NCBI GenBank assembly: GCA_944389185.1
Contig: CALXLL010000002.1
Span: 19,004-83,003, forward strand
Length of the DNA stretch: 64,000 nt
Source of the DNA: an uncultured Alphaproteobacteria bacterium
Lineage (GTDB): Bacteria; Pseudomonadota; Alphaproteobacteria; Rs-D84
Direction: 5' to 3'
Program-made: the position numbers and the translations under genes
Part shown: positions 1,370 through 48,898 of the stretch, piece after piece
How the letters are laid out: every line of letters begins with the position of its first letter
Position numbering within the stretch: the stretch's first letter is position 1
The notes under the pieces: model-generated
The model's database searches: none
Told to the model about the DNA's origin: nothing
Seen by the model: only the letters and a program-made list of their open reading frames with translations

Positions 1370-1437
1370 TCTCTCTTTTGTTAATTATTATTTATAATTA
1401 TATCATAATTCTTATAAAATATGATATACTTAAAACG

Positions 1438-6879: not shown

Positions 6880-7960
6880 TAATTTTTTTATCGATCAAGG
6901 TTTTAGCTTTTTTGCAAGTGGTTGGATGCAGTTTGCAGCAGCTTTTGGTTTATCTTTTTTGATAATGTTGTTATTTGGTCGCAGTTTTATAAAAGTAATG
7001 CATCGCTGGCAAAAGAAAGGTCAACCAATCAGTGAAAATCTTCCGGAAGAGCATAGAAAAAAAGCCGGCACTCCTACTATGGGAGGGATACTTATTCTGA
7101 TTGCTATTATAATCCCCAGTATTTTATTTATGCCTATGTATAACCCCGTTGGTTGGATTGCATTGTTAGCTTTAATAATGTTTGGTTTAATTGGTTTTGC
7201 AGATGATTATAAGAAAGTATCTTCTCAGTCTCGTAAAGCATCAAATGGTTTGTCGCCTTCTTTAAGATTAATATTGGAAGGTATATGCGTAATAATATTA
7301 ACTTATTTAATAAATAAAACAATGCCGGCTTATGTTCCAGAACTTTCTTTGGCTTTGCCATTTGGTATAATAGTATCTTTGGGGTTTTGGTATTATATAT
7401 TTGCTTACTTTGTGATATGCGGCAGCGCGAATGCAACCAATATAACCGATGGATTAGATGGTATGTTGGTAAAGCTGTATATGCCGGTTTTAGTCGTGTT
7501 AGTCGTTGCTTTATATGGGGCAACGCGCATAGGATTTATGGATACGGTTTTGTTCTTACCCGCTGCAAGCGCTTTATACGCAGTATTGGGGGCGGCTTTT
7601 GGTGCTGTTTTGGGATTTTTATGGTTTAATTCAAAGCCGGCTTCAATATTTATGGGGGATGTAGGTTCACTTGCTTTGGGGGGCTTTATGGGAACTGTTG
7701 CGATGTTATTAAAGTCCGAAATCATTATGGGAATATCAGCAGGTATGATGGTTTTAATTTTATTATCTTCATTCATACAGACAATGTATTTTAAGATAAC
7801 CAGAAAAACAACGGGGACAGGCAAAAGAATCTTTTTACGTGCTCCGCTGCATCATCATTTTGAAGAGCTTGGGTGGCCGGAAACTAAAATAGTAGAGCGT
7901 TTTTTCGTTATATCTATACTTTTTTCCGGGCTTGCTTTGGTATTATTAAAATTCGCATAA
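6872..7960 (+). CDS. mraY: phospho-N-acetylmuramoyl-pentapeptide transferase
   Basis: Motifs KKAGTPTMGGILIL, NATNITDGLDGM and HHHFE; polytopic. Confidence 0.95.
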   Translation: MLTNFFIDQGFSFFASGWMQFAAAFGLSFLIMLLFGRSFIKVMHRWQKKGQPISENLPEEHRKKAGTPTMGGILILIAIIIPSILFMPMYNPVGWIALLALIMFGLIGFADDYKKVSSQSRKASNGLSPSLRLILEGICVIILTYLINKTMPAYVPELSLALPFGIIVSLGFWYYIFAYFVICGSANATNITDGLDGMLVKLYMPVLVVLVVALYGATRIGFMDTVLFLPAASALYAVLGAAFGAVLGFLWFNSKPASIFMGDVGSLALGGFMGTVAMLLKSEIIMGISAGMMVLILLSSFIQTMYFKITRKTTGTGKRIFLRAPLHHHFEELGWPETKIVERFFVISILFSGLALVLLKFA

Positions 7961-7969
7961 AGACAAAAT

Positions 7970-9109
7970 ATGTTTAAAAGAACAGAAGAAAGTAAGTTAA
8001 CCAGTTGGTATTTTGAAATAGACCGAGGTCTATTAGGCTTGCTTTTATTTCTTATCTTGATAGGCGTTTTGTTTGTTATATCTGCCGGTAGCGTTGTTGC
8101 GGAAAGAATGGGGCAACCATGGCATTATTTTGTTCTTAAAGCTTTGCCGTTTTATTGCATAGGTTTGATTACTTTGTTCATAGCAAGTGCATTAAACAAA
8201 AAACAGGTATTGGGTATATCGTGGTTAAATATAGGCGTTGGTTTACTTTTGTTGCTGGTAACCGTGATACATCCGCATATAATCAAAGGCTCTGCTAGGT
8301 TCGTATATTTGGGGTTCGTTAATGTTATGCCTTCCGATATTATGAAACCTGGTTTTGTTATATTGACTGCCTGGTTCCTTGCTAAAATGAAAGAAAAATA
8401 TGGGGAAAATATTTTCTTTAATAAAGAAGCTTGGAAGTTGAACGGAATAAACTGGTGGTATTACATAGCGGTGTTTGTTCCCAGTGTTTTGATTATATTT
8501 ACCCATCCGGATTTTGGAACTTCTGTTTTATATTTTGCTGTTTTGGCTGCAATGTTGTTTATTGCTGGTTTGCCTTTGGTTTTAATACCTTTGTTTGCCG
8601 CTGGTGGACTGCTGGGGTTAACTGTTGCTTTTTTTACAATGTCGCACGTTCACAATCGTATTATTTCTTGGCTTTATGGAACGGGCGATAAATATCAGAT
8701 AGTTAAGTCAATTCAGTCCATTCAACATGGTGGTTTATTTGGCAGTGGTGATAATGCGTTTATCAAACAGTCTTTACCAGATGCACACACAGATTTTATT
8801 TATGCTGCAATTGCGGAAGACTTGGGTGCTATTATGGCATGTGGTTTGTTGGTAGTGTTGCTTTTGGTTTTAAAAAGGTTAACGTTGTCTGCGCTTAATG
8901 CAAAAGATAAGTTTGTTTTTTATGCGGCGGGGGGGACGGCAGCTTTGTTTGGAACGCAAGTTTGTATAAACTTGATGTCAACGTTGCATATATTTGCACC
9001 CAAGGGTATGACTTTACCTTTTATATCTTATGGTGGAAGTTCTTTTGTTGGTTTTTGTTTGCTGTTTGGCATGGTATTAGCGCTTGTCAGAGAAGATAAA
9101 TGGAAGTAG
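7970..9109 (+). CDS. ftsW: SEDS-family peptidoglycan glycosyltransferase FtsW
   Basis: FtsW/RodA/SpoVE-type polytopic protein (..PDAHTDFIYAAIAEDLG.., ..GMTLPFISYGGSS..) located between mraY and murG. Confidence 0.88.
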   Translation: MFKRTEESKLTSWYFEIDRGLLGLLLFLILIGVLFVISAGSVVAERMGQPWHYFVLKALPFYCIGLITLFIASALNKKQVLGISWLNIGVGLLLLLVTVIHPHIIKGSARFVYLGFVNVMPSDIMKPGFVILTAWFLAKMKEKYGENIFFNKEAWKLNGINWWYYIAVFVPSVLIIFTHPDFGTSVLYFAVLAAMLFIAGLPLVLIPLFAAGGLLGLTVAFFTMSHVHNRIISWLYGTGDKYQIVKSIQSIQHGGLFGSGDNAFIKQSLPDAHTDFIYAAIAEDLGAIMACGLLVVLLLVLKRLTLSALNAKDKFVFYAAGGTAALFGTQVCINLMSTLHIFAPKGMTLPFISYGGSSFVGFCLLFGMVLALVREDKWK

Positions 9110-10295: not shown

Positions 10296-11654
10296 ATGCG
10301 ACATATTACAGCTTCAATAATATCGCTTTTGGTTATATTACCGGCGTATGCGGACGCGCGTTTGCCGGTTGTTAATATTGCTGCCGGTGGCGTTTCTGCC
10401 AGGGCAGCCTTTGGGGAAGAAACCGCTGTTAAGACGGATGAAAAAAAAGCTGTAAAAAATAATTCTAATAATAATTCAACAAGACGCGTTGTATCAAGAG
10501 TCGCGACAAGTCCCGTAAAAAGAACTGATACTTCTATTCCTTCTTTTGATACAGGACAGCAAATATTTGCAAGTTCTGACGTTTTAAGTCCGCGCAGACC
10601 AAGCTCTGATTTGTGGGCGCGATCTGGTTCTGATGATATGGTTGAAGCGCCTTTGCGTTTACCAGAACCGCAAGAGTTTTCTGTTTTTCGCTCGGACGAA
10701 TTATTACCGGAAGAAAGTATTGATAAAAACTCTGTTGCTAGCAAGGTAGTTGCAAGAAACTCGCAATTAAATGATGCAACCGTTTCTAAACGTCCTGTTG
10801 TTCAGGCAGAACCTATGAGTCAGCTTGATGCAGAAATAGCAAGATTGACAGAATTGCAAAGACGTGCAGAAGCAAGCGTTTCTGATGAAGTATTTAAGGC
10901 AAATGCTGTTATTGCCCAAGCCGCAACAGAAAGTAAAGCTGCTGAATCGGTAAATGTAAAACAAGACAGAATTGCTAAAGTTCGTTCTGGTATGGACGAT
11001 GAAATAAGTTTAAGTAGAATGATAGTTCCTGTAGAAGATGATGTTATAGTTAGATCTGTGGAAAAAGCAAAATCGCCACAGGTTGTATCTGTTAGAAATG
11101 ATATGTCCAGTATGTCGCCAACGGAATTAAGAAAAGCGTTTAGAAAAACATTTTTGTCCGAGAACAAGCATTTGTCTACTTATCAAATAGATGACAGGTT
11201 TGACGTTGCCAGTGATATGGGTTCTTCTATGGAAGGTTTTACTGCGCGACGCGATTTGTCTGAAACAGGTGGTATCAGACCATTGGAAATCAAGATAAAG
11301 TTCCGTAATGACGATGCGGCTTTGTCGCGTGATAATTATAATTTGCTGGCGGAATATGCTGGTATTGTTTTAAGCAATCCAACGCGTGCAGTTCAAATAT
11401 CTATTCCGGAAAACGCTACAAGAAATTCGGACGACAGAAAGTTAGCAGCAAAAAGGTTGGCAATTGTAGAGCAGGTATTACGTGATGCGGGGATTTCTGA
11501 ATATCGTATTATGCCTGTTTTATCTCAGCGAGAAGAGGAAGGACTGGTTCTTAGAATGATTTCCAGTGACCAGTATGAAACATTAACTCAGCAAAAACGC
11601 GATATGTTTGGCGATTCTGTCAGCAAGAAAACTTACAAAAGTATGAGCTGGTAG
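10296..11654 (+). CDS. secreted protein with degenerate C-terminal OmpA/MotB-like domain
   Basis: Signal peptide (..LPAYADA/RLP) and a long low-complexity middle region. The C-terminus (IKFRNDDAALSRDNYNLLAEYAGIVLSNP...KLAAKRLAIVEQVLRDAGI) follows the OmpA_C pattern but lacks canonical residues. Confidence 0.45.
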   Translation: MRHITASIISLLVILPAYADARLPVVNIAAGGVSARAAFGEETAVKTDEKKAVKNNSNNNSTRRVVSRVATSPVKRTDTSIPSFDTGQQIFASSDVLSPRRPSSDLWARSGSDDMVEAPLRLPEPQEFSVFRSDELLPEESIDKNSVASKVVARNSQLNDATVSKRPVVQAEPMSQLDAEIARLTELQRRAEASVSDEVFKANAVIAQAATESKAAESVNVKQDRIAKVRSGMDDEISLSRMIVPVEDDVIVRSVEKAKSPQVVSVRNDMSSMSPTELRKAFRKTFLSENKHLSTYQIDDRFDVASDMGSSMEGFTARRDLSETGGIRPLEIKIKFRNDDAALSRDNYNLLAEYAGIVLSNPTRAVQISIPENATRNSDDRKLAAKRLAIVEQVLRDAGISEYRIMPVLSQREEEGLVLRMISSDQYETLTQQKRDMFGDSVSKKTYKSMSW

Positions 11655-11658
11655 TATC

Positions 11659-12405
11659 TTGTTTAAGTCGTCAAGTTTTTCTTTTAAAAGTATAAGCGAT
11701 TGTTTGTTAGATTTTCTTTTTCCTGCTTCTTGTGCTGTATGTGGTAAACCTGTTTCTAAAAATGGAGAACTTTGTCCAGATTGTTGGAAGTTGTTTGATT
11801 GGATATCAAGTCCGAAGTGTTATAAATGTGGCTATCCTTTTCCTGCTGATTTAGATTTAGATGATAAACCTTTGTGCCCTGTTTGTGCGGCAGGTAAGTC
11901 AGAACTGGATTTTATTCGTTCTGCATGTGTTTACAATGATATATCACGGGATGTGATTTTGCCTTTTAAGCATTCGGGACACATTTCTTATGCCAAGTTT
12001 ATGTCAAAATCAATGATAAACGCACTGCAAGATTTAAACTTAAAACCAGATGTTGTTTTACCTGTTCCATTGTCGCATCGGCGATTGTTTCATCGTGGAT
12101 ATAATCAAGCTGTTTTACTTGCGCGTGATATAGCAAGATTTTATGGTGTGGCTTTAGATTTTGATAGTGTTAAAAGGATTCATCGTCCTGATATGGGGCA
12201 TAAAAATGCAAAGCAAAGAGCAGAAAATATTGCAGGTGTTTTCAAAATCTTGAAGCCACATAATATAAAAGACAGAAATATTTTAATTGTTGATGATGTG
12301 ATGACAACCGGTGCAACGTTCGCAGAGTTATACAAAGTATTAAAGAAAGGCGGAGCGAATAAGGTTTATGGTGTGACTTTTGCCAGAGTTGTTAGAGCAA
12401 TTTAA
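11659..12405 (+). CDS. comF: ComF-family phosphoribosyltransferase-like competence protein
   Basis: N-terminal Cys4 (CAVCG..CPDCW; CYKCG..CPVC) plus the PRTase motif ILIVDDVMTTGAT. Confidence 0.85.
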   Translation: MFKSSSFSFKSISDCLLDFLFPASCAVCGKPVSKNGELCPDCWKLFDWISSPKCYKCGYPFPADLDLDDKPLCPVCAAGKSELDFIRSACVYNDISRDVILPFKHSGHISYAKFMSKSMINALQDLNLKPDVVLPVPLSHRRLFHRGYNQAVLLARDIARFYGVALDFDSVKRIHRPDMGHKNAKQRAENIAGVFKILKPHNIKDRNILIVDDVMTTGATFAELYKVLKKGGANKVYGVTFARVVRAI

Positions 12406-30309: not shown

Positions 30310-31055
30310 TGAGCAGATATAAAATAATTCTTGAATATGACGGAACGGATTTAATAGGTTGGCAGGAAAATCGCCAAGGTGATTCTGTGCAATCTTTATT
30401 AAAATCTGCGTTAAAGCAATTTATTGGAAAAACAACAGATGTTGTTGCAGCTGGCAGAACTGATGCGGGTGTGCATGCTTTGGGGATGGTGGCTCATTTT
30501 GATATAGCAGATAAAGATTATGATGCGGATACGGTTATGCGTGCTCTTAATTTTTATCTGACGGGCAAACCAATAGCCGTTTTGTTCTGCCAAAAAGTCG
30601 GTGATGATTTTCATGCTAGGTTTTCTTGCTTGCGAAGAAATTATAAGTATCTAGTTTTAAATAGAAGGCCGCCTGCAGTTTTGTCCAGTAATCGTGTTTG
30701 GTGGGTGCCAAGAAAACTTAATATCAAAGCTATGCGCGTTGCAGCAGAAAAACTTTTGGGGCGTCATGATTTTACAAGTTTTCGTGCTTCGGAATGTCAG
30801 GCAAAAAGCCCGATAAAAACTTTGGACTTATGCAAAATAAAAAAATCTGGTGATATGATTATTTTTGAATTTTCTGCTAAATCTTTTCTTCATCACCAAG
30901 TCAGAAATATGGTCGGAACATTGATAGAAATAGGCCTTGGTAAACCGTTAGATATACAAGAAATATTTAACGCCAAAGATAGAAGTGCAGCCGGTCCTAC
31001 GGCGCCAGCGTCTGGACTTTATTTCGTCAGCGCCCAATATGCCACAGACGATTAG
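30309..31055 (+). CDS. truA: tRNA pseudouridine(38-40) synthase
   Basis: MSRYKIILEYDGTDLIGWQ.. and the catalytic GRTDAGVHA motif. Confidence 0.93.
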   Translation: MSRYKIILEYDGTDLIGWQENRQGDSVQSLLKSALKQFIGKTTDVVAAGRTDAGVHALGMVAHFDIADKDYDADTVMRALNFYLTGKPIAVLFCQKVGDDFHARFSCLRRNYKYLVLNRRPPAVLSSNRVWWVPRKLNIKAMRVAAEKLLGRHDFTSFRASECQAKSPIKTLDLCKIKKSGDMIIFEFSAKSFLHHQVRNMVGTLIEIGLGKPLDIQEIFNAKDRSAAGPTAPASGLYFVSAQYATDD

Positions 31056-32970
31056 GGTTATTATATTTTATCTTGCCGCTGTCGTATATCACAAGACCGC
31101 CATTTAATATCTTATGTTCACATGATTTTGAATATATCTTAAAGTAAGAAACTATATAATCTATATCTTCGTCTTTGCATAGTTTGGATATATTCTTTTC
31201 TAATGTCGTAAACTTTTGCATGTATGCAAGATTAAAGTTCTTCGTTTTATAAACGTAAAGACTTTTGTTGTGTTTGCGTCTTTTGTTCGGCGTTTCTGTT
31301 GGTTCATTATTAAGTCTTTTCCAGGTATCAAAAGCAAAATAATGATTGGAAGCCCGGGACTTATTAAACTCTAATTTATCTTCGTTCAAGAACGCAACAA
31401 GTTCATGGTCTGGCGTTGCGTAAAATATGGGCTTGGGTTGAATACTTGTTAATATTATTCCTATAAAGCAGAAAAATAAAAACAAATAAAGATTTATTAA
31501 TTTTATTTTTAATGGCTTTATAAATACTAAGCACAAAAATCCGATAATTATAAAAGTCAAAGCTATATTTGGAACGTGAGGAAAGTTAAGAGTTGAAAAA
31601 GGAAGGTCTGATATTATTTGTGCGAAGTGCAAGGTTTTATCATAAAATATTTCTGCTAAATCTAACGGTCCGTATATATGAAAGCAAGCTGTAAAAGTTC
31701 CGACGATAACAAGCGGCATAATGGCAAAAGAAAATATAGGTAATAAGATTAGATTACCAATCAGACTGTAAATCGGCATACTGTAAAAATGAGCAATTAC
31801 GAACGGAGCCGTAAATAAAGTAGCAACCAAAGAAGTTAAGGTAGCAGTATAGATTATTTTAAGGATTTTATTTTTAGGAAGTCTTGGTTTAACTTCTGTC
31901 CAAAGCCACACGAGTCCAAATATAGCAGAAAAAGATAATTGAAAACCTGCTTGCATAACAAAGTGCGGATTTATGAAGAAAAGAATGCAAAATGCGATAC
32001 AGATATTTCTGACGGATATAACTTTGCGACCGAATAAGAAGGCTAGAAATAATAAAGTCGTCATAAGAAAGGCTCGGATTGTTGCGACATCTGTTCCCGA
32101 TAAAAATAAGTAAAATAAAAGTCCAAACCACGCAAGTATAGTTGCAGGAAACTTAGCCGGTATTCTTTTCGTTATAACAGGCATGCATCTAAAAATGCAA
32201 TAGAATAAAATCGTCAGCCAACCGCCAACCAAAGTCATATGAAAGCCGCTGATTGACCAGACGTGACCGACGCCTGTTGCCGTCCAGATGGGGTTGTCAT
32301 TTTCTGGAACGGACTTTTTATAACCAAGCACCAAACTATCCACAAGAAAAGAATCAGATAAGTTATGAAGTTTATTTCTTAAAGAGTTTATCCAATTTAT
32401 GTTTTGATGAGATATAATATCATAAGAATCTAAATATCCCGTTCCGGTAAGCCTGTTAAAATACGCCCATCTGGCATAATCAAAAGTTTCCAGGGCATAA
32501 AGTGCTGACGGTTTGAATATACCTATATTTGCTTTTATAGTATCACCGATATCTAAATTGGAAACATCTTGCTTGGTTGATAGGCGAATGATAGCTGTCC
32601 CGTCATATTCATCATTAAGCTTTGTCGCATCGGTTGATAAATATACTCTTGTTTTGTCTGCGGTATAATCAATATTTTTAACACTAGCAATAATTTCACC
32701 CCTGAAAAATCTAGAACGAAGTTGCGGAGTGTTTAATAAATAAGTAAAAATACTTGCATAGCAAAAACCGAATAAGAAAAGCATACAAGCTTTTATTATT
32801 TTCGGTGTTTTATTAAAAACTAGTAAAGCAATAGAAATTATAAAACCAATTATTATGAAAGTAAGATTCGGTTCAAACGAAATGTTAAAATAAAGTCCGG
32901 CACCGAAAGCCATTAAAAATGGTATCCAACAGAAAGCGTTAACAAATTGATTATTCAGGAAATCTTTCAT
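31027..32970 (-). CDS. comEC: ComEC/Rec2-family DNA internalization channel protein
   Basis: 647 aa and polytopic. The ComEC competence domain shows the ..GVGHVWSISGFHM.. motif. No obvious C-terminal metallo-beta-lactamase HxHxDH motif was seen. Confidence 0.85.
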   Translation of the reverse strand: MKDFLNNQFVNAFCWIPFLMAFGAGLYFNISFEPNLTFIIIGFIISIALLVFNKTPKIIKACMLFLFGFCYASIFTYLLNTPQLRSRFFRGEIIASVKNIDYTADKTRVYLSTDATKLNDEYDGTAIIRLSTKQDVSNLDIGDTIKANIGIFKPSALYALETFDYARWAYFNRLTGTGYLDSYDIISHQNINWINSLRNKLHNLSDSFLVDSLVLGYKKSVPENDNPIWTATGVGHVWSISGFHMTLVGGWLTILFYCIFRCMPVITKRIPAKFPATILAWFGLLFYLFLSGTDVATIRAFLMTTLLFLAFLFGRKVISVRNICIAFCILFFINPHFVMQAGFQLSFSAIFGLVWLWTEVKPRLPKNKILKIIYTATLTSLVATLFTAPFVIAHFYSMPIYSLIGNLILLPIFSFAIMPLVIVGTFTACFHIYGPLDLAEIFYDKTLHFAQIISDLPFSTLNFPHVPNIALTFIIIGFLCLVFIKPLKIKLINLYLFLFFCFIGIILTSIQPKPIFYATPDHELVAFLNEDKLEFNKSRASNHYFAFDTWKRLNNEPTETPNKRRKHNKSLYVYKTKNFNLAYMQKFTTLEKNISKLCKDEDIDYIVSYFKIYSKSCEHKILNGGLVIYDSGKIKYNNPNRLWHIGR

Positions 32971-36405: not shown

Positions 36406-36443
36406 GACGGCGGGATTTCTATTGACCGCCGTTGTGTTTTTTT
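36406..36443 (+). terminator. rho-independent terminator after pyk
   Basis: ACGGCGG...CCGCCGT stem followed by TGTGTTTTTTT. It overlaps the track's TTG start at 36432, which argues for a later start of the next gene. Confidence 0.7.
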
Positions 36444-36458
36444 ACTATGATTTATATT

Positions 36459-37637
36459 ATGATGAAAAGAAGGTTAGGGATTTTTTTCTTGTGCTTTTTT
36501 TGGTCTTTTTCCGCAATGTCGGCTCAGTATCGCGCGGCGTTGGTTGCTGATATGGATACGGGTCAAGTTTTGTATCAAGAAAACGCAAAAGTTCAAAATT
36601 ATCCGGCAAGCTTAACGAAAATAATGACGTTATATTTAACGTTCGATGCATTGGAACATGGGCGTCTTAGTCTGGATGATTATTTAATTGTTTCTCAAAG
36701 CGCAGCTTCGGCTTCTCCTGTGAAATTAGGCTTGAAGGCAGGAAGTAAAATAAAAGTAGAAGATGCAATTAAGGCTTTAACGGTTTTAAGCGCTAATGAT
36801 GTCGCAAGAGTTTTAGCCGAAAACTTAAAAGGTGGTAAAGAGGGTAATTTTGCTTCTTTGATGACGCAAGTTGCGGGTGAAATAGGTTTGTCTCAAACTA
36901 ATTTTGAAAACTCGTCTGGGCTTCCTAATGACGACCATTTATCTACGGCACGTGATATTGCCTTGTTATCTATGGCGGTTTATAAGCACTTTCCGCAGTA
37001 TTGGAAATATTTCGGGATAAAGACTTGGACTTATAACGGCAAGACCTATACAAACGGCAATAGACTATTAGGGACTTATGAAGGTTGTGATGGTATGAAG
37101 ACTGGTTTTACGAATAAGTCAAAATATTCTTTGGTGGCGACGGCTAAAAGAAACGGTAAGCATTTAATATCGGTTGTTTTAGGGGCGGAAAATAAAGACG
37201 TTCGTGCTAATGTATCTGTAAAGCTTTTGAATAAGGGTTTTGAAATGGTCGCAAATGGCAGTGCACCGATTGTGAAACAAACTGCGGTTAGTTCTGTTAA
37301 TTCTTATAGTGCGCCAAAACAGACGACGGGTGGTGCAAATACTTTTTCCTCTGCGTATAATACGGCCACTGGAAATGTTGCAAAATCTTACAACGGTCAA
37401 AGTTCTGATGCGATAAGGTCTGGTAATGCCGGTGTTCAGTTTGGGGCTTTTTCTTCCAAATCTTATGCGCAAAATCAGGTAAATAATGTAAAAAATAAGA
37501 TAGGGGTAAATACCGTGATAGAAACGGCTCCGAACGGTATGTATCGTGTCAGAGCGAATGGTTTATCTGAAAGCTTGGCGCAAAATGTAAAAAATCGTGC
37601 TTTGGATGCAGGTATAGATTGTTATATATTTCACTAA
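36459..37637 (+). CDS. D-alanyl-D-alanine carboxypeptidase (PBP5/6 class) with C-terminal SPOR domain
   Basis: Signal peptide MMKRRLGIFFLCFFWSFSAMSA. Motifs SLTK (SxxK), SAND (SxN) and KTGFT (KTG). The C-terminus GVQFGAFSSKSYAQNQ...MYRVRANGLSESLAQNVKNRALDAGIDCYIF is SPOR-like. Confidence 0.85.
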   Translation: MMKRRLGIFFLCFFWSFSAMSAQYRAALVADMDTGQVLYQENAKVQNYPASLTKIMTLYLTFDALEHGRLSLDDYLIVSQSAASASPVKLGLKAGSKIKVEDAIKALTVLSANDVARVLAENLKGGKEGNFASLMTQVAGEIGLSQTNFENSSGLPNDDHLSTARDIALLSMAVYKHFPQYWKYFGIKTWTYNGKTYTNGNRLLGTYEGCDGMKTGFTNKSKYSLVATAKRNGKHLISVVLGAENKDVRANVSVKLLNKGFEMVANGSAPIVKQTAVSSVNSYSAPKQTTGGANTFSSAYNTATGNVAKSYNGQSSDAIRSGNAGVQFGAFSSKSYAQNQVNNVKNKIGVNTVIETAPNGMYRVRANGLSESLAQNVKNRALDAGIDCYIFH

Positions 37638-43433: not shown

Positions 43434-43784
43434 TTATTCTATCCAATCTTTTTCTTTAGCGGCTTTGTATAAGGTTGTCATAGCCGATTTCCAAAGGCTT
43501 GCTGCTTTATTTTCGGTCCAAATATATTGATGTGGTGCACGTCTTTTATCGCCGAAAAGCTTCATTGTTTCTAATTGTTCATCGGAAAGTTGACCGGATA
43601 AATAAAGTTTTGTTATAAGAGTTTCAACATCTAAAAGTTCGCAAGGTCGTTTTGTCGTATGTGTTTTTTGATATATGAAGTTTTTCTGCACTGATTTTGA
43701 ATATACAAACCAAAACCAAAGCTGTTCAGCGTTTTGAAATTTTTCTATATTTGATATATTTAATTGAGTGTTGTTTGCTTTCAT
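43434..43784 (-). CDS. small hypothetical protein (116 aa)
   Basis: Strong RBS (AAGGAGG, 6 nt, ATG). No TM. ..AEQLWFWFVYSK...LSDEQLETMKLFGDKRRAP.. has no confident family. Confidence 0.5.
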   Translation of the reverse strand: MKANNTQLNISNIEKFQNAEQLWFWFVYSKSVQKNFIYQKTHTTKRPCELLDVETLITKLYLSGQLSDEQLETMKLFGDKRRAPHQYIWTENKAASLWKSAMTTLYKAAKEKDWIE

Positions 43785-43983: not shown

Positions 43984-44042
43984 TAAAACGATTTTATTTT
44001 ATATTAATATATGTATTCAATCCTTTTTTTTCAATGGTTATC

Positions 44043-44066
44043 ATAAAAAAACTGCCAAAAGGCAGT
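44043..44066 (-). terminator. rho-independent terminator of the virB8-9-10-like operon
   Basis: ACTGCC-TTTT-GGCAGT followed by TTTTTTTATGA on the minus strand, 9 nt after the stop codon. Confidence 0.75.
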
Positions 44067-44074
44067 TTAATTTT

Positions 44075-46528
44075 TTAAAGAATAGGCGGGAAGCAATCGC
44101 CACCTGTTTCTGGGCAACAGTTAAAACCTTGTTCGCCCATATCTGTATATATTTCACCTGGACAGCAGCCATATTCATCTGGTAAAGCCCCGTCTTCGCA
44201 AGTTATAACAGGCGCAGCTTCTTCTGTAACAGTTTCTGTTGTTTGTGTGAAGGGATTCAATATAGCACCTGAATCATCATAGGTAAGTCCAAGAATATCT
44301 TCGTTATAAGATTGTAATCCGGTTGATGTAGACGTATCATAATTTGTTTGGAATTGTTGCTGTTGATTTTGATAATAAGCATCTTGACGAGCATTATTTA
44401 TTGCTTCATATTGACTAGATTGGCAATAGAACAAAACCGTTCTATAATCAAGCCCTGCTTCACGAATAGCTTCTTCAACAGTCATTCCATTAACAGATGT
44501 TTTTAATTTTGTATCTGTAGATAAATCACAGAATTGTTCAAGATTAAATGAACGAACTTGTCCGGTCCAAGAACCGTCCGCATAATTAGGAACTGCTTGA
44601 TTCGCCCAATTATCATTTCTTTTATTTCTCATAGAAGCAATACTATCTGCTTGTGCTTGGCTTATAGAACATTTTTTACCGTTTCCTACGCCACAGGTCA
44701 CGACCAGGTCTGTCGGAGAATATACAGTAATACGCGTTCCTGCTGCAATAGAAAACGGTGGAACTGTATTATCCATCATATCTACAATTAATTTTTGCGC
44801 CACCTGATTCCAGGCATTTATTATTTCATTTTTAGCTAATTCAGAAGATCTTATAGTACCACTTTGCACAACTGTATTATTGTCCAAATCAATTTGATTT
44901 ACGAAAGTATCGGCAACAGGCGCAATCATATTAACTGCTGCCGGAACAATAGCGGTAAGCATAGGCATAACGAATTGTTCAAGATAGTCTGTGCTGCCAC
45001 GGCCTGGAACGCCTATACGACCTTGCGAGTCTGCAGAAAATGGATCTGAACCAGAGTTAAAATTAAACTCAACTCCATTTGGTAAAATAAACTGATACCA
45101 ATTTATTTCCATACGACCAATAGAACTATAAGGCCCCGGTAAAGTTCCCGTTAAATATCCTAACATTAATGTCCCAGCTGGTATAATAACCGTTCTGCCG
45201 TTATCTGCATATACGTTTCTATCAACGGTTGCACGAACCGGCATACTTTTTTCTCCTTGTTTATAAACAGATGGATCCGCACGAACTTCGGATACTATGG
45301 TTGCAGGAATTGGTTTATATTGACGTAAGACGAAAGTTCTGTCATATGGATCAGAAGAATATGTTGCATTACCACTGGTCCCGACAATTTCTTCCCCTTG
45401 CGTTTCTTGCGTTATCACTGCAAACCCGCCACCTGCCGAGCTTGTTGCCGTATCTGGCGTAGCATTTGTTATTCCAAGTTCTGCATCAGTTAATTGTCTT
45501 GCTTTATTTACATTTGCTTGACTTTTAGGATTGGAAAGTTGCGGTATAGTGCCATTTGTTATCGTCGTATAACCGATATGTTCGGCATCTGTTCCTATTT
45601 TTTTTCCGCTGTCGTTTATATCTGTAATAATCCCATTATCTGGATTGTAAACACCTGTTGGATTGTTGCAATCTTTATCGGAAAAAGGATGAAAATAATA
45701 AGCACCAGCTTCTGGTCTTATCCAGCCTATCTGTGTGCCAGAAGAATTATAACCAGGAAAAGCAAAATCTGAACAAGATATTGCCGGCGTTTTTTCTTCC
45801 TCTTCTTCCGTATAACCTTCTATATATACAGGTTGCGGTGTGAACTGTCTTTCCAGTGGGTCTGGTAAAGCGATAGATGCAATTTCTTCCTTAAAAGATT
45901 CTTTTACGGGTTCTTCCTTTATTACTACTTCTTCTTTCTCTTCTATAACTGGTTCTGTCTTATTTTCTACCTTTTGTTCTATTTTTTGTTCTGTCTGTTT
46001 TTCTTCCGTATTATTTTCTTCATCTGCAACGGCTCCCAATACAATAACTATTTTATTAGTTTTTTTCATCTTTTCAGGTTCGTCCACTCCGCGCCAATCT
46101 ATATATAAGGCAACAGGTTCTGTTGTGAATGGCTTCGTCGGGTTATAATCTAAAACAATTTTACATGCAGTTTTGTCATCTATAAAAGCCATTTGCGTGC
46201 AAGAGTTTAACGGTGTAGGAAAACCGTTAACTTCTTTTGTAATTCTTATGGCCATAATTTTAACCGGTGCAGAAGCATAAACTTTTACAGTTTGATTTCT
46301 GTTTTCGCCGACTTTTGTTTCTGCCCAGTTTACGGATTCGGGGCTCATAATAAGTTTTAACGGAACGTCTGAAGAAGATATTTCTGATACATCTGAATCT
46401 TCTTTATTTGTAAGCAATAGCGTCAACAATATGATTACAAGAACAAAAGCTGCAATTAGCAATAACCATTGAACTGCTTTCGGTGTTGACTTTCTTAATT
46501 CAGAAAACTGCTGTTTAATTTTATTCAT
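44075..46528 (-). CDS. virB10: VirB10/TrbI-family T4SS core protein with extra N-terminal beta-sandwich-like module, acidic linker and Cys-rich C-terminal extension
   Basis: 817 aa. TM at res 21-40. VirB10/TrbI core at about res 398-611 (..VRATVDRNVYADNGRTVIIPAGTLMLGYLTG...GRMEINWYQFILPNGVEFNF...ADSQGRIGVPGRG...PPFSIAAGTRITVYSPTDLVV). An E/K-rich linker at res 168-246 replaces the usual Pro-rich region. The tail at res 612-817 contains 10 Cys. Confidence 0.75.
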   Translation of the reverse strand: MNKIKQQFSELRKSTPKAVQWLLLIAAFVLVIILLTLLLTNKEDSDVSEISSSDVPLKLIMSPESVNWAETKVGENRNQTVKVYASAPVKIMAIRITKEVNGFPTPLNSCTQMAFIDDKTACKIVLDYNPTKPFTTEPVALYIDWRGVDEPEKMKKTNKIVIVLGAVADEENNTEEKQTEQKIEQKVENKTEPVIEEKEEVVIKEEPVKESFKEEIASIALPDPLERQFTPQPVYIEGYTEEEEEKTPAISCSDFAFPGYNSSGTQIGWIRPEAGAYYFHPFSDKDCNNPTGVYNPDNGIITDINDSGKKIGTDAEHIGYTTITNGTIPQLSNPKSQANVNKARQLTDAELGITNATPDTATSSAGGGFAVITQETQGEEIVGTSGNATYSSDPYDRTFVLRQYKPIPATIVSEVRADPSVYKQGEKSMPVRATVDRNVYADNGRTVIIPAGTLMLGYLTGTLPGPYSSIGRMEINWYQFILPNGVEFNFNSGSDPFSADSQGRIGVPGRGSTDYLEQFVMPMLTAIVPAAVNMIAPVADTFVNQIDLDNNTVVQSGTIRSSELAKNEIINAWNQVAQKLIVDMMDNTVPPFSIAAGTRITVYSPTDLVVTCGVGNGKKCSISQAQADSIASMRNKRNDNWANQAVPNYADGSWTGQVRSFNLEQFCDLSTDTKLKTSVNGMTVEEAIREAGLDYRTVLFYCQSSQYEAINNARQDAYYQNQQQQFQTNYDTSTSTGLQSYNEDILGLTYDDSGAILNPFTQTTETVTEEAAPVITCEDGALPDEYGCCPGEIYTDMGEQGFNCCPETGGDCFPPIL

Positions 46529-46553
46529 ATTTTACTTCATACAATTCGTTTAA

Positions 46554-48092
46554 TTACTGAATTCTTACAACGCTGCAAGATATTCCTTGGGATTTTGTCA
46601 GTTTATCGCACAAAGTTTGTGCCGTATCAATATCTGCCATAGGACCAATACGTAGGCGATACAATCTTGCTGTTGAAGAATCTGCACCCAAATCACCGAC
46701 GCCTTGTTCGTCAACGGCAAAGAATACCATATCTTTATAAGGTGTCAGTAATCCTTGACCGTCTTCACCGCTGAACATAGCAAGTAAGCTTGCCCAGTAA
46801 TCATCCAAAGCTTTTACAGAAGTATCCGCTTTTAATTCAACCGCAACGCCGTTTTGGTTGCTTGTGATAAGCGGTATATTTGATTGTGGCAAGTATGAAC
46901 CTGCGGTTAAACGTTCTGTTGGTATCATCGATAAACCAGAGCTTGAACCACCGCCATAGTTTCCATACATCTGAACAGAATAACCCGCCGGCATATAGGT
47001 TCCGGCACCACCAGCATTAACATTATTCCCTACAAACATTGGTGTTGTTGTATAATTTGATACGCCTGAATTAATTGCCGCCATATCGGATGTATAAGCG
47101 ATATTATTTAGCGATTGACCGGATAAAATGCTTTGGGCGACATTTGCTTCTGCCAATGCCATAACACTGGCCGTATCGGCAATTAAGAACGGTTTTTCAC
47201 GTTTCTTTATGCAGACAATTCTTTGACCGCTGCGCAGCACCATATCACCCACGGCTTCCACAATAAGTAATCTGCTGTCTTCGCCGTCTGTCCTGAAGCT
47301 GACAGGTGATTCACCACCTTCAACCAACAACGATACTACAGGGCGTTGCGTCATAGAAATAACTTTGTCACCGAAATCAATATAAGTAAATATCTGATCG
47401 CGCCATACGCGTTCAGGTGCAATCACGTAATCATCAGGATTTGGAACAAATATATCCAGGTCAAACCTAAACTCTGAAGGGTCAATCTTCATAGATTTTA
47501 TCCAACCATAGTCTTCACCGTCTACACCCACGGTATTTGATGTTGATGAAGCTTTTTTAAATATCGAAGAAGCGCCACTTCCCATAGTCGTATTTCCCGA
47601 TGCATTCGGCAAAGTAGAATTACCATCCAAAGTAATATCAACCTGAGAATAAGTAATTTCACTGGAATTAGAAGGTTCACTTCTTAAATAGAATATATAT
47701 TGATTACCAGACTTACCAGTCACGATAAGGTTAGTATCAGAACCTTGATTACTGGCCAGCGGTGAAATTAACATATTATTGCTGCCTTGTGTTGCGTCAA
47801 TTTTGAAAAGGTTTTCGTTTCCTATAACTGCTTCTGCAATTTGTTCGCCGTTTGGTAAAGTTACCAAAGTAACCATACCGTTACGAAGCTTAATTGGTAA
47901 AACGCTGCCTGGTGACCAGGTTAGTTGAGCATACCCAGGTTTGACACTTCCGCTTGCCATATTTGCATTTGGATTATCCCAAGCGCTTTGCACACCATAG
48001 TTGTATCCGGCAGAATAAGCTTCTGATAACGCAAGCACGCTTAGTAAGCAAAACATGGATACATTTATTTTAATAGCCTTTGATATACTCAT
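46554..48092 (-). CDS. virB9: VirB9/TrbG-family T4SS outer-membrane core protein fused to a C-terminal SPOR domain
   Basis: ATG at 48092 with a GGAAGGA RBS; the track TTG lies at 48098. Signal peptide ..LALSEAYSA. VirB9 N-domain (..MVTLVTLPNGEQIAEAVIGNENLFKID...NMLISPL...TNLIVTGKSGNQYIFYL) and C-domain (..APERVWRDQIFTYIDFGD...RPVVSLLVEGGESPVSFRTDGE..LIVEAVGDMVLRSGQRIVCI). A G/S/N-rich linker precedes the SPOR-like end ..ARLYRLRIGPMADIDTAQTLCDKLTKSQGISCSVVRI. Confidence 0.75.
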   Translation of the reverse strand: MSISKAIKINVSMFCLLSVLALSEAYSAGYNYGVQSAWDNPNANMASGSVKPGYAQLTWSPGSVLPIKLRNGMVTLVTLPNGEQIAEAVIGNENLFKIDATQGSNNMLISPLASNQGSDTNLIVTGKSGNQYIFYLRSEPSNSSEITYSQVDITLDGNSTLPNASGNTTMGSGASSIFKKASSTSNTVGVDGEDYGWIKSMKIDPSEFRFDLDIFVPNPDDYVIAPERVWRDQIFTYIDFGDKVISMTQRPVVSLLVEGGESPVSFRTDGEDSRLLIVEAVGDMVLRSGQRIVCIKKREKPFLIADTASVMALAEANVAQSILSGQSLNNIAYTSDMAAINSGVSNYTTTPMFVGNNVNAGGAGTYMPAGYSVQMYGNYGGGSSSGLSMIPTERLTAGSYLPQSNIPLITSNQNGVAVELKADTSVKALDDYWASLLAMFSGEDGQGLLTPYKDMVFFAVDEQGVGDLGADSSTARLYRLRIGPMADIDTAQTLCDKLTKSQGISCSVVRIQ

Positions 48093-48111
48093 ACCCAATC
48101 CTTCCGTTCTT

Positions 48112-48780
48112 TTAATTCAAATAACCTGTATCAAGCGGATCACCGTTTCCTGAATCAACTTCATATTCAACCACACGAAGCCCCAGTGGGTTTTTCATAC
48201 GGTCTGACCACTTAACGTCTTTTTGGTCATCCATTGCCAACTTTACAATGATTGTATAATCTTTTTTACCTGTCTGTCCATCACTATTTGCACAAAAATA
48301 ACTAAAATTAACATAATAAGTATCGTCCGTTCTTGGGGTAATTGCACCGGGTTGAAATTCTACTGGGCAGAAAAATTCAAAATCCGGTGTATTAGTCATC
48401 AAAGCATTCCACATATTAGTTTCTGTAAAACTGCCGTAAACTTCGGGTGAAGACCAAGCATGAACAATTCCTTCGTCGTCATTATTCCATTTTTTTATCA
48501 TGACTTTTTGATTTGTGACGATTTCATTTCTTGCTTTGATGTATTCGCGGATAAAACTTCTTTTATATATTTCCAGATTTTCATCTTGCGGTGGCATATC
48601 TACAACTGTGACTTCAAGGTTATCAGCAGGTTGGGTGACTAAAAAGAAGATTTGAGGCCTTTCCAAAGGGTATATTTTATATAGCGTATAAAGCAAAACG
48701 CCAACAGCAACAACCATTGCAGCAAACACGAAAGTCAAAAGTCTTGATATTAAAGTTGGCGGTTCTATGCGGGTTTGCAC
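48112..48780 (-). CDS. virB8: VirB8-family T4SS inner-membrane protein
   Basis: Short cytoplasmic N-terminus and a single TM (LLTFVFAAMVVAVGVLLYTLY). The periplasmic domain ends in the VirB8-type NPLGLRVVEYEV motif. GTG at 48780 is preceded by AAGGGAGA; the track's TTG at 48840 would place a promoter-like element inside the CDS. Confidence 0.7.
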   Translation of the reverse strand: MQTRIEPPTLISRLLTFVFAAMVVAVGVLLYTLYKIYPLERPQIFFLVTQPADNLEVTVVDMPPQDENLEIYKRSFIREYIKARNEIVTNQKVMIKKWNNDDEGIVHAWSSPEVYGSFTETNMWNALMTNTPDFEFFCPVEFQPGAITPRTDDTYYVNFSYFCANSDGQTGKKDYTIIVKLAMDDQKDVKWSDRMKNPLGLRVVEYEVDSGNGDPLDTGYLN

Positions 48781-48806
48781 GTGCTTTTCTCCCTTCTTAC
48801 AGAAAG

Positions 48807-48836
48807 ATTGTAGAAAAAAAGTGCATATCTGTGCAA
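48807..48836 (-). promoter_or_regulatory. candidate sigma70 promoter for the virB8-9-10-like operon
   Basis: Minus strand: TTGCAC (48836-48831), N18, TACAAT (48812-48807), about 27 nt upstream of GTG 48780. Confidence 0.35.
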
Positions 48837-48898
48837 GCAAAAAGTTAATAAATTAAAATCAAAACGATAAAAATATGGTTGTATTTATTAAAAAGTTC

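What the first reader, a model, noticed from the sequence alone, without database searches (positions are those of the whole stretch)
46554..48092. VirB9-like protein fused to a peptidoglycan-binding SPOR domain through a G/S/N-rich linker
Residues about 55-300 reproduce both VirB9 domains: an N-terminal beta-sandwich with ..TNLIVTGKSGNQYIFYL, and a C-terminal domain with ..FTYIDFGD...PVVSLLVEGGESPVSFRTDG...VLRSGQRIVCI. About 115 low-complexity residues follow. The last 100 aa (nt about 46557-46853) read like a SPOR domain, ending ..LYRLRIGPMADIDTAQTLCDKLTKSQGISCSVVRI. Canonical VirB9 proteins stop after the C-terminal domain and are tethered to the outer membrane via the VirB7 lipoprotein, and no VirB7-like gene is seen here. 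A SPOR tail would instead anchor the core complex to denuded septal or polar glycan strands. That predicts division-site localisation of the machine, and I am not aware of this architecture being described.
Basis: partly seen in the sequence, partly recalled or inferred. Interest (0 to 1): 0.7.

Follow-up and report, generated by a model that had tools for sequence, protein, structure and literature searches.

The report
VirB9 secretion subunit with SPOR-like tail
A gut alphaproteobacterium with a tiny genome encodes a type IV secretion core protein (VirB9) that really does carry a cell-wall-binding-type SPOR fold at its end, but the tail belongs to a widespread, undescribed variant whose key sugar-contacting residue is changed, so the predicted division-site targeting is doubtful.

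Summary
ORF 46554-48092(-) lies in a virB8-virB9-virB10 operon. It has a VirB9/CagX domain (Pfam E 9e-23) and a C-terminal SPOR match above Pfam's cut-off. A confident model of the tail (pLDDT 88) finds RlpA and DedD SPOR domains as its top three PDB matches. The fusion is one uninterrupted frame in 80 related species (Candidatus Enterousia, order Rs-D84), so it is not a frameshift artefact.

- The Gln that contacts denuded glycan (FtsN Q251, RlpA Q270) is Glu in 312 of 316 tails, Asp in 3 and Gln in 1. Q251E is the FtsN mutation that weakens septal localisation. A canonical SPOR in the same window keeps Gln.
- Relatives with the same tail also encode a VirB7-like lipoprotein, so the tail does not replace VirB7.
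- The same two-cysteine tail occurs on VirB9 of complete plasmid T4SS in cultured Sphingosinicella and Erythrobacter.

Best reading: a divergent SPOR-fold module tethers the outer-membrane core complex to the wall, with an unknown or altered ligand. No paper describing it was found. I file it as a new variant of a known kind, of moderate interest. Whether this genome has a complete T4SS is unresolved.

The parts
48112..48840 (-). virB8 homologue (242 aa), first gene of the operon
   Evidence: PF04335 VirB8, E=3.6e-12. Conserved upstream of virB9 in all 80 relatives, median 54% identity.
46554..48098 (-). VirB9-family protein with C-terminal SPOR-like tail. 514 aa from TTG; the ATG at 48092 gives the 512-aa product. 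Stop codon at 46554-46556.
48009..48098 (-). Sec-type signal peptide (about residues 1-30; K-rich n-region, hydrophobic core, AYS|AG)
   Evidence: Read from the sequence. This is an inference; no predictor was run.
47202..47927 (-). VirB9/CagX region, residues 58-299 (N-terminal and C-terminal beta domains with a variable S/T/N-rich inter-domain stretch at 159-192)
   Evidence: PF03524 E=8.8e-23. Residues 193-300 are 99% conserved across 81 sequences. TIGR02781 scores only 54 bits against a cut-off of 218.
47094..47198 (-). Residues 301-335: nearly invariant post-domain segment, predicted helical
   Evidence: 97% majority identity across 81 sequences. Helices 309-326 and 330-345 appear in a low-confidence full-length model. 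The segment is not conserved in the plasmid homologues.
46929..47093 (-). Residues 336-390: variable low-complexity linker, 64% G/S/N/T/A
   Evidence: 56% majority identity, with length variation.
46854..46928 (-). Residues 391-415: conserved lead-in to the tail (MIPTERLTAGSYLPQSNIPLITSNQ)
   Evidence: 86% majority identity.
46557..46853 (-). Residues 416-514: SPOR-fold domain (beta-alpha-beta-beta-alpha-beta). Key residues: E421 (nt 46836-46838), L479, R481, R483, G485-P486, C497, C508.
   Evidence: PF05036 hit. AlphaFold2 pLDDT 87.8, pTM 0.78. Foldseek top three hits are RlpA and DedD SPOR domains. Residue mapping.
44075..46528 (-). virB10 homologue (817 aa): TrbI domain at residues 401-608, a long N-terminal region, and a roughly 200-aa C-terminal extension ending in a Cys-rich motif
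   Evidence: PF03743 E=3.2e-17; NF038091 VirB10 and NF038092 ComB10, both below their cut-offs. The Cys-rich end is conserved in 77 of 80 relatives.
43434..43784 (-). 116-aa ORF of unknown function downstream of virB10; possibly the last gene of the operon
   Evidence: No Pfam hit. Conserved in 72 of 80 relatives at 65% identity.
37422..37628 (+). Canonical SPOR domain, residues 331-399 of the DD-carboxypeptidase encoded at 36432-37637. Used as an internal comparator; not part of the machine.
   Evidence: PF05036, 30 bits, profile positions 3-74. It keeps the glycan-contacting Gln ('GVQFGAF') and 'MYRVRANG'.

Best explanation
The gene encodes the VirB9-type subunit of a type IV secretion outer-membrane core complex. 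It is expressed from a virB8-virB9-virB10 operon in a Candidatus Enterousia-like (order Rs-D84) gut alphaproteobacterium with a genome of about 0.9 Mb.

After the two VirB9 beta domains come a conserved helix, a roughly 55-residue flexible linker, and a periplasmic SPOR-fold domain of about 100 aa that probably carries a disulfide.

In the assembled ring, one tail per VirB9 copy would hang below the outer-membrane layer at the height of the sacculus and tether the complex to the cell wall. It would act as a built-in wall anchor or positioning device. This is functionally analogous to the OmpA-like DotK subunit of Dot/Icm and to the AMIN domains of the PilQ secretin. The tail acts in addition to, not instead of, a VirB7-type lipoprotein.

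The domain is a distinct subfamily. The glycan-contacting Gln is an invariant Glu or Asp, while the Arg pair is kept. Its ligand or binding mode therefore probably differs from classical recognition of denuded septal glycan.

Shown: the architecture, the fold, the conservation, the gene context and the residue substitution.
Inferred: wall binding, the ring geometry and the disulfide.
For: Domains and fold:
- Pfam VirB9 and SPOR matches.
- 19 of 21 divergent tails hit SPOR, and no other family is hit.
- The tail model has pLDDT 87.8 with beta-alpha-beta-beta-alpha-beta order.
- The Foldseek top three are RlpA SPOR (with and without glycan; probability 1.0, TM-score 0.73 normalised to the target) and DedD SPOR. 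Later hits are generic ferredoxin-like folds with TM-scores mostly near 0.3 (at most 0.43).

Selection: the fusion is in one frame in all 81 sequences, and the tail is as conserved as the VirB9 N-domain (88% against 85%), while the linker drifts (56%).

Residues:
- R481/R483 match RlpA R309/R311, the basic patch that binds the MurNAc lactyl carboxylate. L479 matches L307.
- C497 and C508 are essentially invariant (one Cys-to-Ser at C497) in 335 tails, consistent with a periplasmic disulfide. C508 aligns with FtsN C312.

Context:
- The virB8-9-10 order is conserved in the 80 species (79 for the VirB10 TrbI domain).
- The same tail sits on VirB9 in full clusters: VirB2-B11/D4 on the Erythrobacter plasmid, a VirB4-sized protein to VirD4 plus MobA on the Sphingosinicella plasmid, and the chromosomal cluster L083 (VirB4 through VirB11).

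Precedent for a wall-binding subunit that positions a secretion machine: DotK (PMC10266036) and the PilQ AMIN domains (PMC10653833).
Against: - No binding data exist.
- The Gln-to-Glu/Asp change at the key position is the same type of change that weakens FtsN SPOR binding, so the tail may bind the wall poorly or not at all.
- Sequence similarity to solved SPOR domains is marginal. hhalign against FtsN or CwlC gives E of 0.004-0.02 at low probability. A PDB profile search finds nothing. The Foldseek E-value is only 1.5e-3.
- The plasmid tails are not recognised by Pfam.
- VirB4, VirB6, VirB11 and VirD4 were not found in the window, in about 10 kb to its left, or within 10 kb of virB9 in 80 relatives. 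A working T4SS in this genome is therefore not demonstrated.
- The full-length model is poor (pLDDT 45), so the geometry is inferred from established T4SS structures, not computed here.
Confidence: 0.5

Rival explanations
1. The tail is a classical SPOR domain that binds denuded glycan strands made by septal amidases. It therefore targets the T4SS to division sites and new poles, and it substitutes for the missing VirB7 lipoprotein.
For: - The SPOR fold and Pfam hit.
- The Arg pair and the hydrophobic beta3 residue are retained.
- No VirB7-like gene lies in the window or within 10 kb of virB9 in 80 relatives.
- Peptidoglycan synthesis genes are present in the window.
- Multi-copy avidity in a ring could compensate for weak individual sites (inference).
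Against: - The Gln equivalent to FtsN Q251 / RlpA Q270 is Glu in 312 of 316 tails, Asp in 3 and Gln in 1. Q251 is described as the most conserved residue of the cleft, and Q251E lowers septal localisation and glycan binding. In RlpA the Gln amide donates hydrogen bonds to the lactyl carboxylate and the N-acetyl carbonyl, which a carboxylate cannot do.
- The canonical SPOR in the same window keeps Gln, so the change is specific to the VirB9 tail.
- VirB7-like lipoproteins co-occur with the tail in relatives.
Confidence: 0.17
2. The tail has lost glycan binding and is a protein-protein module. It might dock on VirB10, VirB8, a pilus or stalk component, or neighbouring tails, to stabilise or gate the core complex.
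For: - The acidic replacement of the glycan-contacting Gln is fixed across the family.
- The tail co-evolves with a T4SS clade that has unusual partners: giant VirB10 proteins (2,717 aa in L083; 1,442 aa in L081, which also encodes a further 2,195-aa protein) and the 817-aa VirB10 here with a Cys-rich end.
- Conserved flanking segments (301-335 and 391-415) suggest additional contacts.
Against: - The basic Arg pair that binds the MurNAc carboxylate in RlpA is nearly invariant (R483 in 333 of 335 tails; R481 is Arg or His). That is hard to explain without a sugar-acid ligand.
- A long flexible linker suits reaching a distant layer more than a fixed docking site (inference).
- No partner was identified.
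Confidence: 0.2
3. The virB8-9-10 operon of this reduced genome is not part of a classical effector or conjugation T4SS. It could be a remnant, or a ComB-like DNA-uptake conduit that works with ComEC and ComFC. In either case the tail's role would be tied to that function.
For: - Only virB8, virB9 and virB10 are found, and no ATPase or VirB6 lies nearby.
- ComEC (31027-32970) and a ComFC-like gene (11659-12405) are in the window.
- VirB10 also matches the ComB10 model (E=1.5e-13).
- The published Rs-D84 survey reports type IV pilus genes only for another of its three lineages (UBA9783) and says Rs-D84 lacks nucleotide biosynthesis (PMC12306168).
Against: - Only about 9% of the genome was seen, and rvh-type systems (the Rickettsiales VirB homologues) are typically scattered (established knowledge).
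- The operon is under strong constraint: the VirB9 C-terminal domain is 99% conserved across 80 species.
- Both the VirB10 and ComB10 scores are far below their cut-offs.
- This rival concerns the machine's cargo and does not by itself explain the tail.
Confidence: 0.1
4. The fusion is a sequencing or assembly frameshift that joins two separate genes.
For: In one distant relative (L081/L082) the tail is called as a separate 101-aa ORF overlapping the end of virB9.
Against: - There is one uninterrupted frame in the window and in all 80 species-level genomes, and in hundreds of independent assemblies.
- The L081 split is itself a frame change inside the variable linker, relative to an intact 621-aa homologue, P0136.
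Confidence: 0.01

Closest known systems
VirB9 / TraO / TrbG outer-membrane core subunits of type IVA secretion systems (A. tumefaciens VirB9, pKM101 TraO, R388 TrwF, X. citri VirB9)
   Same: - PF03524 match over both beta domains, and a signal peptide.
- Gene order virB8-virB9-virB10.
- In relatives, the full VirB2-B11/D4 set and a small lipoprotein next to virB8.
   Different: - Canonical proteins end after the C-terminal domain. This one adds about 215 residues: a helix, a linker and a SPOR-fold domain.
- It scores far below the TIGR02781 equivalog cut-off (54 against 218 bits).
- The closest plasmid VirB9s are only 31-39% identical.
SPOR domains of FtsN, DamX, DedD, RlpA and CwlC (PF05036), which bind denuded septal glycan
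   Same: - Fold and strand/helix order.
- The 'hydrophobic-x-R-x-(R)-hydrophobic-G-P' beta3 motif and the x-G-[SA] turn after beta1.
- A Cys in beta4 aligned with FtsN C312.
- Pfam score above the cut-off.
   Different: - The invariant glycan-contacting Gln is Glu or Asp.
- The second Cys is in helix 2, not beta1, so any disulfide has a different geometry.
- There is an insertion of about 20 residues between beta2 and beta3.
- The domain is attached to a secretion-system subunit rather than a divisome or wall-remodelling protein.
DotK (IcmN), the OmpA-like lipoprotein of the Legionella Dot/Icm (type IVB) outer-membrane core complex
   Same: A wall-binding module that is part of a T4SS outer-membrane complex. 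DotK binds peptidoglycan and is needed for polar placement of the machine (PMC10266036).
   Different: - DotK has an OmpA-like fold and is a separate lipoprotein subunit in a type IVB system.
- Here the module is a SPOR fold, covalently fused to VirB9, in a VirB/D4-type (IVA-like) system.
AMIN domains of the type IVa pilus secretin PilQ
   Same: Peptidoglycan-binding domains fused to the ring-forming outer-membrane subunit. They recruit it to septal and polar wall (PMC10653833; PMC5285504).
   Different: Unrelated fold, N-terminal position, a secretin rather than VirB9, and experimentally shown there but not here.
Rickettsiales vir homologue (rvh)-type chromosomal T4SS
   Same: Relatives carrying the tail (L083, L081, L092) show the order virB8 - small lipoprotein - virB8 - virB9 - virB10 (- virB11 in L083). 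From my own knowledge this is the order typical of rvh systems. The hosts are reduced-genome Alphaproteobacteria.
   Different: - The window has a single virB8 and no lipoprotein gene.
- To my knowledge, which I could not test here, rvh VirB9 proteins are not described with a SPOR-like tail.
- The VirB10 proteins here are much larger.

Membership tests
VirB9/CagX/TrbG family (PF03524) | Profile match above the curated cut-off, covering both domains | tested here: met
   81.6 bits against a cut-off of 34.2; residues 58-299 cover profile positions 5-197 of 198.
VirB9/CagX/TrbG family (PF03524) | Encoded between virB8 and virB10 homologues | tested here: met
   VirB8 at 48112-48840 and VirB10/TrbI at 44075-46528. 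The order is conserved in the 80 relatives (VirB8 in 80, the VirB10 TrbI domain in 79).
VirB9/CagX/TrbG family (PF03524) | Exported to the periplasm (N-terminal signal peptide) | tested here: inconclusive
   A typical n-h-c region ending AYS|AG is visible in the sequence. No signal-peptide predictor was available.
VirB9/CagX/TrbG family (PF03524) | Part of a complete T4SS (VirB4 and the other components) in the same genome | tested here: inconclusive
   None found in the 64-kb window, about 10 kb to its left, or within 10 kb of virB9 in 80 relatives. The rest of the genome could not be read. Relatives with the tail do have full sets.
P-type VirB9 equivalog (TIGR02781) | Score at or above the equivalog cut-off | tested here: not met
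   54.4 bits against a cut-off of 217.7. This is a divergent family member, not the canonical P-type orthologue.
SPOR domain (PF05036) | Profile match above the gathering cut-off | tested here: met
   28.6 bits in the full protein and 32.2 bits for the isolated tail, against a cut-off of 21. Only profile positions 38-76 are covered. 19 of 21 divergent tails match at E<=0.1. The plasmid tails do not match.
SPOR domain (PF05036) | RNP-like beta-alpha-beta-beta-alpha-beta fold of about 70-100 residues | tested here: met
   AlphaFold2 pLDDT 87.8. The Foldseek top three PDB hits are SPOR domains 6i09, 6i05 and 6ztg.
SPOR domain (PF05036) | Conserved glycan-contacting Gln in beta1 (FtsN Q251, RlpA Q270) | tested here: not met
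   Glu in the window protein (E421). Across 335 tails, 316 have a residue at this position: 312 Glu, 3 Asp, 1 Gln.
SPOR domain (PF05036) | Basic and hydrophobic beta3 residues that hold MurNAc (FtsN W283/R285; RlpA L307/R309/R311) | tested here: met
   L479, R481 and R483 align with them. R483 is Arg in 333 of 335 tails. R481 is Arg or His.
SPOR domain (PF05036) | Binds amidase-processed (denuded) glycan and localises to the septum | not testable with these tools
   Needs pull-down, calorimetry or localisation experiments.

The most novel reading that the evidence does not exclude
The VirB9 tail defines a separate, widespread branch of the SPOR fold, with an acidic residue in place of the Gln and a helix2-strand4 cysteine pair. 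It recognises a wall feature other than denuded glycan, for example peptide-bearing or N-deacetylated strands, or an unrelated periplasmic polymer. Through that feature it sets where VirB/D4-type machines are built in many Alphaproteobacteria, from conjugative plasmids of Sphingomonadales to chromosomal systems of reduced-genome gut symbionts. This would give type IVA systems a built-in wall anchor that has been overlooked, and it could be tested in cultured hosts.
Probability: 0.3. Interest if true: 0.65.

Novelty: new variant of a known kind. Interest (0 to 1): 0.5.

Why it matters
How VirB/D4-type secretion machines are fixed in, and positioned relative to, the cell wall is poorly understood. 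The known wall links are a lytic transglycosylase (VirB1) and, in the unrelated type IVB system, DotK.

A wall-binding-type domain fused directly to the ring-forming VirB9 subunit would be a simple structural answer for a large group of systems. That group is at least 281 species-level genomes, plus plasmids of cultured Erythrobacter and Sphingosinicella.

The fixed Gln-to-Glu/Asp change also offers a natural experiment on what determines SPOR ligand specificity.

For Enterousia, a common but uncultured gut lineage thought to depend on partner cells, the operon is one of the few recognisable cell-surface machines in the stretch of genome examined.

Tried and rejected
- Sequence search of the full protein and of a 21-sequence tail profile against PDB chains gave no meaningful hit.
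- hhalign of the tail profile against the single FtsN or CwlC SPOR sequences gave only the beta3-alpha2 stretch, E 0.004-0.02. Bona fide SPOR domains are barely detectable by one another too: an FtsN+CwlC profile against RlpA gives E=0.14.
- The full-length AlphaFold2 model from a shallow alignment was too poor to use (pLDDT 45). I did not search with it.
- The 'separate SPOR gene' in L081/L082 looked like gene fission. It is a frame change inside the variable linker relative to intact homologues, so I do not count it as evidence.
- Hunt for the rest of the T4SS in this organism:
  - tblastn with VirB4, VirB11 and unknown proteins from relatives against the window and 80 loci found nothing.
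  - Extending left of the window found no T4SS gene.
  - A database search with a relative's VirB4 returned a different gut alphaproteobacterial lineage with a contiguous cluster, not Enterousia.
  - Extending to the right failed because the edge protein is not on record.
- I tested whether the polytopic membrane proteins at the left edge are VirB6-like. They have no Pfam support and no similarity to the unknown proteins of related clusters.
- A lipobox scan and a 'PCAC' motif scan for a VirB7-like gene found none in the window.
Full report
**What is at the coordinates.** The minus-strand ORF 46554..48098 encodes 514 aa from TTG. The ATG at 48092 gives the 512-aa product that gene callers report. 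It sits 13 nt downstream of a VirB8 homologue (48112-48840) and 25 nt upstream of a VirB10/TrbI homologue (44075-46528). This three-gene block is the only sizeable minus-strand unit in a stretch of plus-strand housekeeping genes: lspA and yidC on one side, and tRNA-Trp followed by ORFs that read as secE, nusG, rplKAJL and rpoBC (assigned by eye from their translations, not scanned) on the other. The window is about 37% G+C.

**Domain matches.** Pfam gives CagX/VirB9 at E=8.8e-23 over residues 58-299. It gives SPOR at E=1.8e-6 (28.6 bits, cut-off 21) over residues 474-512, which is only the second half of the profile. The NCBIfam VirB9 equivalog is far below its cut-off. This is therefore a divergent member of the VirB9 family.

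**Organism.** A scan of one genome per GTDB species found 281 genomes with a relative. The 80 best are 73-81% identical. They are labelled Candidatus Enterousia, 'uncultured Rickettsiales' or Alphaproteobacteria MAGs from human and animal guts, and include one closed 958,618-bp chromosome. The literature places Enterousia in order Rs-D84. These are reduced genomes of less than about 1 Mb that lack most biosynthesis and are thought to depend on partner cells. The published survey does not mention secretion systems (PMC12306168).

**The fusion is real.** In the window and in all 80 relatives, the VirB9 C-terminal-domain motif and the tail motif lie in one stop-free frame. Conservation is uneven:

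| Segment (residues) | Majority identity |
|---|---|
| VirB9 N-terminal domain, 56-158 | 85% |
| VirB9 C-terminal domain, 193-300 | 99% |
| Following segment, 301-335 | 97% |
| Variable linker, 336-390 | 56% (64% G/S/N/T/A) |
| Lead-in, 391-415 | 86% |
| Tail, 416-514 | 88% |

 The '115 low-complexity residues' are thus a conserved helix, a true linker of about 55 residues, and a conserved lead-in. One distant relative (L081/L082) has the tail called as a separate 101-aa ORF. An intact 621-aa homologue aligns to that locus in two frames, with the break inside the linker. It is therefore a frameshift, real or technical, and not evidence for independent genes.

**The tail has a SPOR fold.**
- I built a 21-sequence alignment of tails 25-64% identical to the window's tail.
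- 19 of the 21 hit SPOR in Pfam, and no other family is hit.
- AlphaFold2 on this alignment gives pLDDT 87.8 and pTM 0.78, with the order beta-alpha-(short alpha)-beta-beta-alpha-beta.
- Foldseek against the PDB puts RlpA SPOR (with and without bound glycan) and DedD SPOR in the first three places. The best hit, 6i09, has probability 1.0, a TM-score of 0.73 normalised to the target, and E=1.5e-3. Generic ferredoxin-like folds follow, with TM-scores mostly near 0.3 (at most 0.43).
- Direct sequence comparison with solved SPOR domains is weak. Solved SPOR domains are equally weak against one another.

**The tail is not a classical SPOR domain.** Three MAFFT modes agree on the alignment with FtsN, CwlC and RlpA:

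| VirB9 tail | FtsN | RlpA |
|---|---|---|
| E421 | Q251 | Q270 |
| L479 | W283 | L307 |
| R481 | R285 | R309 |
| R483 | - | R311 |
| C508 | C312 | - |

Pfam's own coordinates give the same answer. In the window's canonical SPOR the Gln falls at profile position 8, and the divergent tail P0144 has Asp at that position. Among 335 tails, 316 have a residue at the Q251 position: Glu 312 times, Asp 3 times and Gln once. C497 and C508 are essentially invariant (one Cys-to-Ser at C497), and R483 is nearly invariant.

In RlpA the Gln amide donates hydrogen bonds to the MurNAc lactyl carboxylate and to the GlcNAc N-acetyl carbonyl (PMC6895207). In FtsN, Q251 is called the most conserved residue of the cleft, and Q251E reduces septal localisation and denuded-glycan binding (bioRxiv 10.1101/2024.05.13.594014). 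The same window encodes a DD-carboxypeptidase (36432-37637) with a full-length canonical SPOR domain that keeps the Gln ('GVQFGAF ... MYRVRANG'). The substitution is therefore a property of the VirB9 tail, not of the organism.

**Distribution and partners.**
- An exhaustive search of 50%-identity representatives found 490 relatives.
- Among the 89 full-length proteins (380 aa or longer) in the best 150, an iterated tail HMM finds the module in 23. A further 26 end in the same two-cysteine signature, giving 49 of 89.
- Plasmid VirB9s of cultured Sphingosinicella sp. BN140058 (430 aa) and Erythrobacter aureus (432 aa) carry it ('YMVDLGAG ... VRLRVGPF ... VCKAM ... SCSVV'). The Erythrobacter gene sits in a complete VirB2-B11/D4 cluster. 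The Sphingosinicella gene sits in a cluster running from a VirB4-sized protein to VirD4, next to MobA. Pfam does not detect SPOR in either.
- Chromosomal clusters of other gut Alphaproteobacteria show VirB4 ... VirB8, a 62-66-aa lipoprotein, VirB8, VirB9 with the tail, a giant VirB10, and VirB11.
- That small lipoprotein has a lipobox and a conserved 'LK.[ST]PCAC' motif. It is also present upstream of virB8 on the Erythrobacter and Microvirga plasmids, and unannotated on the Sphingosinicella plasmid. The tail and a VirB7-like lipoprotein therefore co-exist.
- In the window, and within 10 kb of virB9 in 80 Enterousia-type loci, no such lipoprotein gene is found. No VirB4, VirB11 or VirB6-like gene is found there either. 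I could not read the rest of the genome, so the completeness of the system here is open.

**How it most likely works.** By homology with solved VirB7/9/10 core complexes (established knowledge, not computed here), the VirB9 C-terminal domain sits in the outer-membrane layer of a ring of about 14 copies. A roughly 55-residue disordered linker could carry the tail the few nanometres down to the sacculus. The retained Arg pair, the invariant cysteines (a likely periplasmic disulfide) and the strong conservation point to a functional ligand-binding module. The simplest ligand is the cell wall. The tail would then act as a built-in anchor, like DotK in Dot/Icm, which binds peptidoglycan and is needed for polar placement (PMC10266036), or the PilQ AMIN domains (PMC10653833). 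Because the key Gln is replaced, I do not think classical denuded-glycan recognition, and hence septal targeting, can be predicted. An altered ligand or a protein partner are both live alternatives.

**Novelty.** No paper in the library mentions VirB9 together with a SPOR domain. The papers that mention type IV secretion together with a SPOR domain do not, judging by their titles and abstracts, concern such a fusion; I did not open them. Nothing describes secretion systems in Rs-D84. Database names are only 'TrbG/VirB9 family' for full-length proteins, and 'SPOR domain-containing protein, partial' for fragments. I rate it a new variant of a known kind. The parts and the principle (a wall-binding module on a secretion-system ring) are known. 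The combination on a VirB9, and the acidic two-cysteine SPOR subfamily, appear to be undescribed.

Noticed in passing
window 36432-37637 (+): DD-carboxypeptidase (Peptidase_S11) with a full-length canonical SPOR domain at its C-terminus (residues 331-399) that keeps the conserved Gln. It served as an internal control for the VirB9 tail.
   Followed up: partly
window 31027-32970 (-) and 11659-12405 (+): ComEC and a ComFC-like protein (double zinc ribbon plus phosphoribosyltransferase) in a lineage for which the published survey reports no type IV pilus genes. Together with the weak ComB10 match of VirB10, this raises the idea of a ComB-like DNA-uptake role for the virB8-10 operon.
   Followed up: no
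window 44075-46528 (-): The VirB10 homologue is 817 aa. It has a long Glu/Lys-rich N-terminal region and about 200 residues after the TrbI domain, ending in a Cys-rich motif (CCPGE...CCPETGGDCFPP) conserved in 77 of 80 relatives. Relatives have giant VirB10s: 1,442 aa with Bflower domains in L081 and 2,717 aa in L083.
   Followed up: partly
window 43434-43784 (-): A 116-aa ORF with no Pfam match and no signal peptide lies directly downstream of virB10. It is conserved in 72 of 80 relatives at about 65% identity and may be a fourth operon gene.
   Followed up: partly
window 80-1369 (-) and 1378-2724 (+); L085 8646-15225: Divergently transcribed polytopic membrane proteins (about 430-450 aa, 5-10 predicted helices) with no Pfam match. 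To the left of the window they continue as an array of five such genes with similar helix spacing. They are not detectably VirB6-like.
   Followed up: partly
L081 4119-4307; L083 9030-9230; L084 4026-4190; L089 7907-8113; L090 1675-1851; L088 about 7900-8100 (unannotated): A family of 54-68-aa lipoproteins with a lipobox and a conserved 'LK.[ST]PCAC' motif lies next to virB8 in every related cluster examined that carries the VirB9 tail. These are VirB7-like candidates. None was found in the window.
   Followed up: partly
window 6520-6816 (+): A 98-aa lipoprotein between the PBP1a and mraY genes. Its counterpart in L085 carries a Pfam MliC (lysozyme inhibitor) hit.
   Followed up: no
window 10296-11654 (+): A 452-aa secreted protein after murG with no Pfam match. 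By eye, its C-terminal roughly 100 residues resemble an OmpA/MotB-like wall-binding motif (…DDRKLAAKRLAIVEQVLRDAGI…).
   Followed up: no
L092-L098 (other gut alphaproteobacterial MAGs): A very prevalent lineage (its VirB4 is indexed in 328 blocks of the contig collection) has a contiguous cluster: VirB2 x2, VirB3, VirB4, four unknown proteins, VirB8, lipoprotein, VirB8, VirB9. It lies beside a secretin/TcpQ/PilO/ATPase pilus cluster.
   Followed up: no
window 44001-48000: GC skew turns negative only over the virB operon, matching its opposite orientation to the surrounding genes. G+C content there is not unusual, so composition gives no sign of recent acquisition.
   Followed up: no
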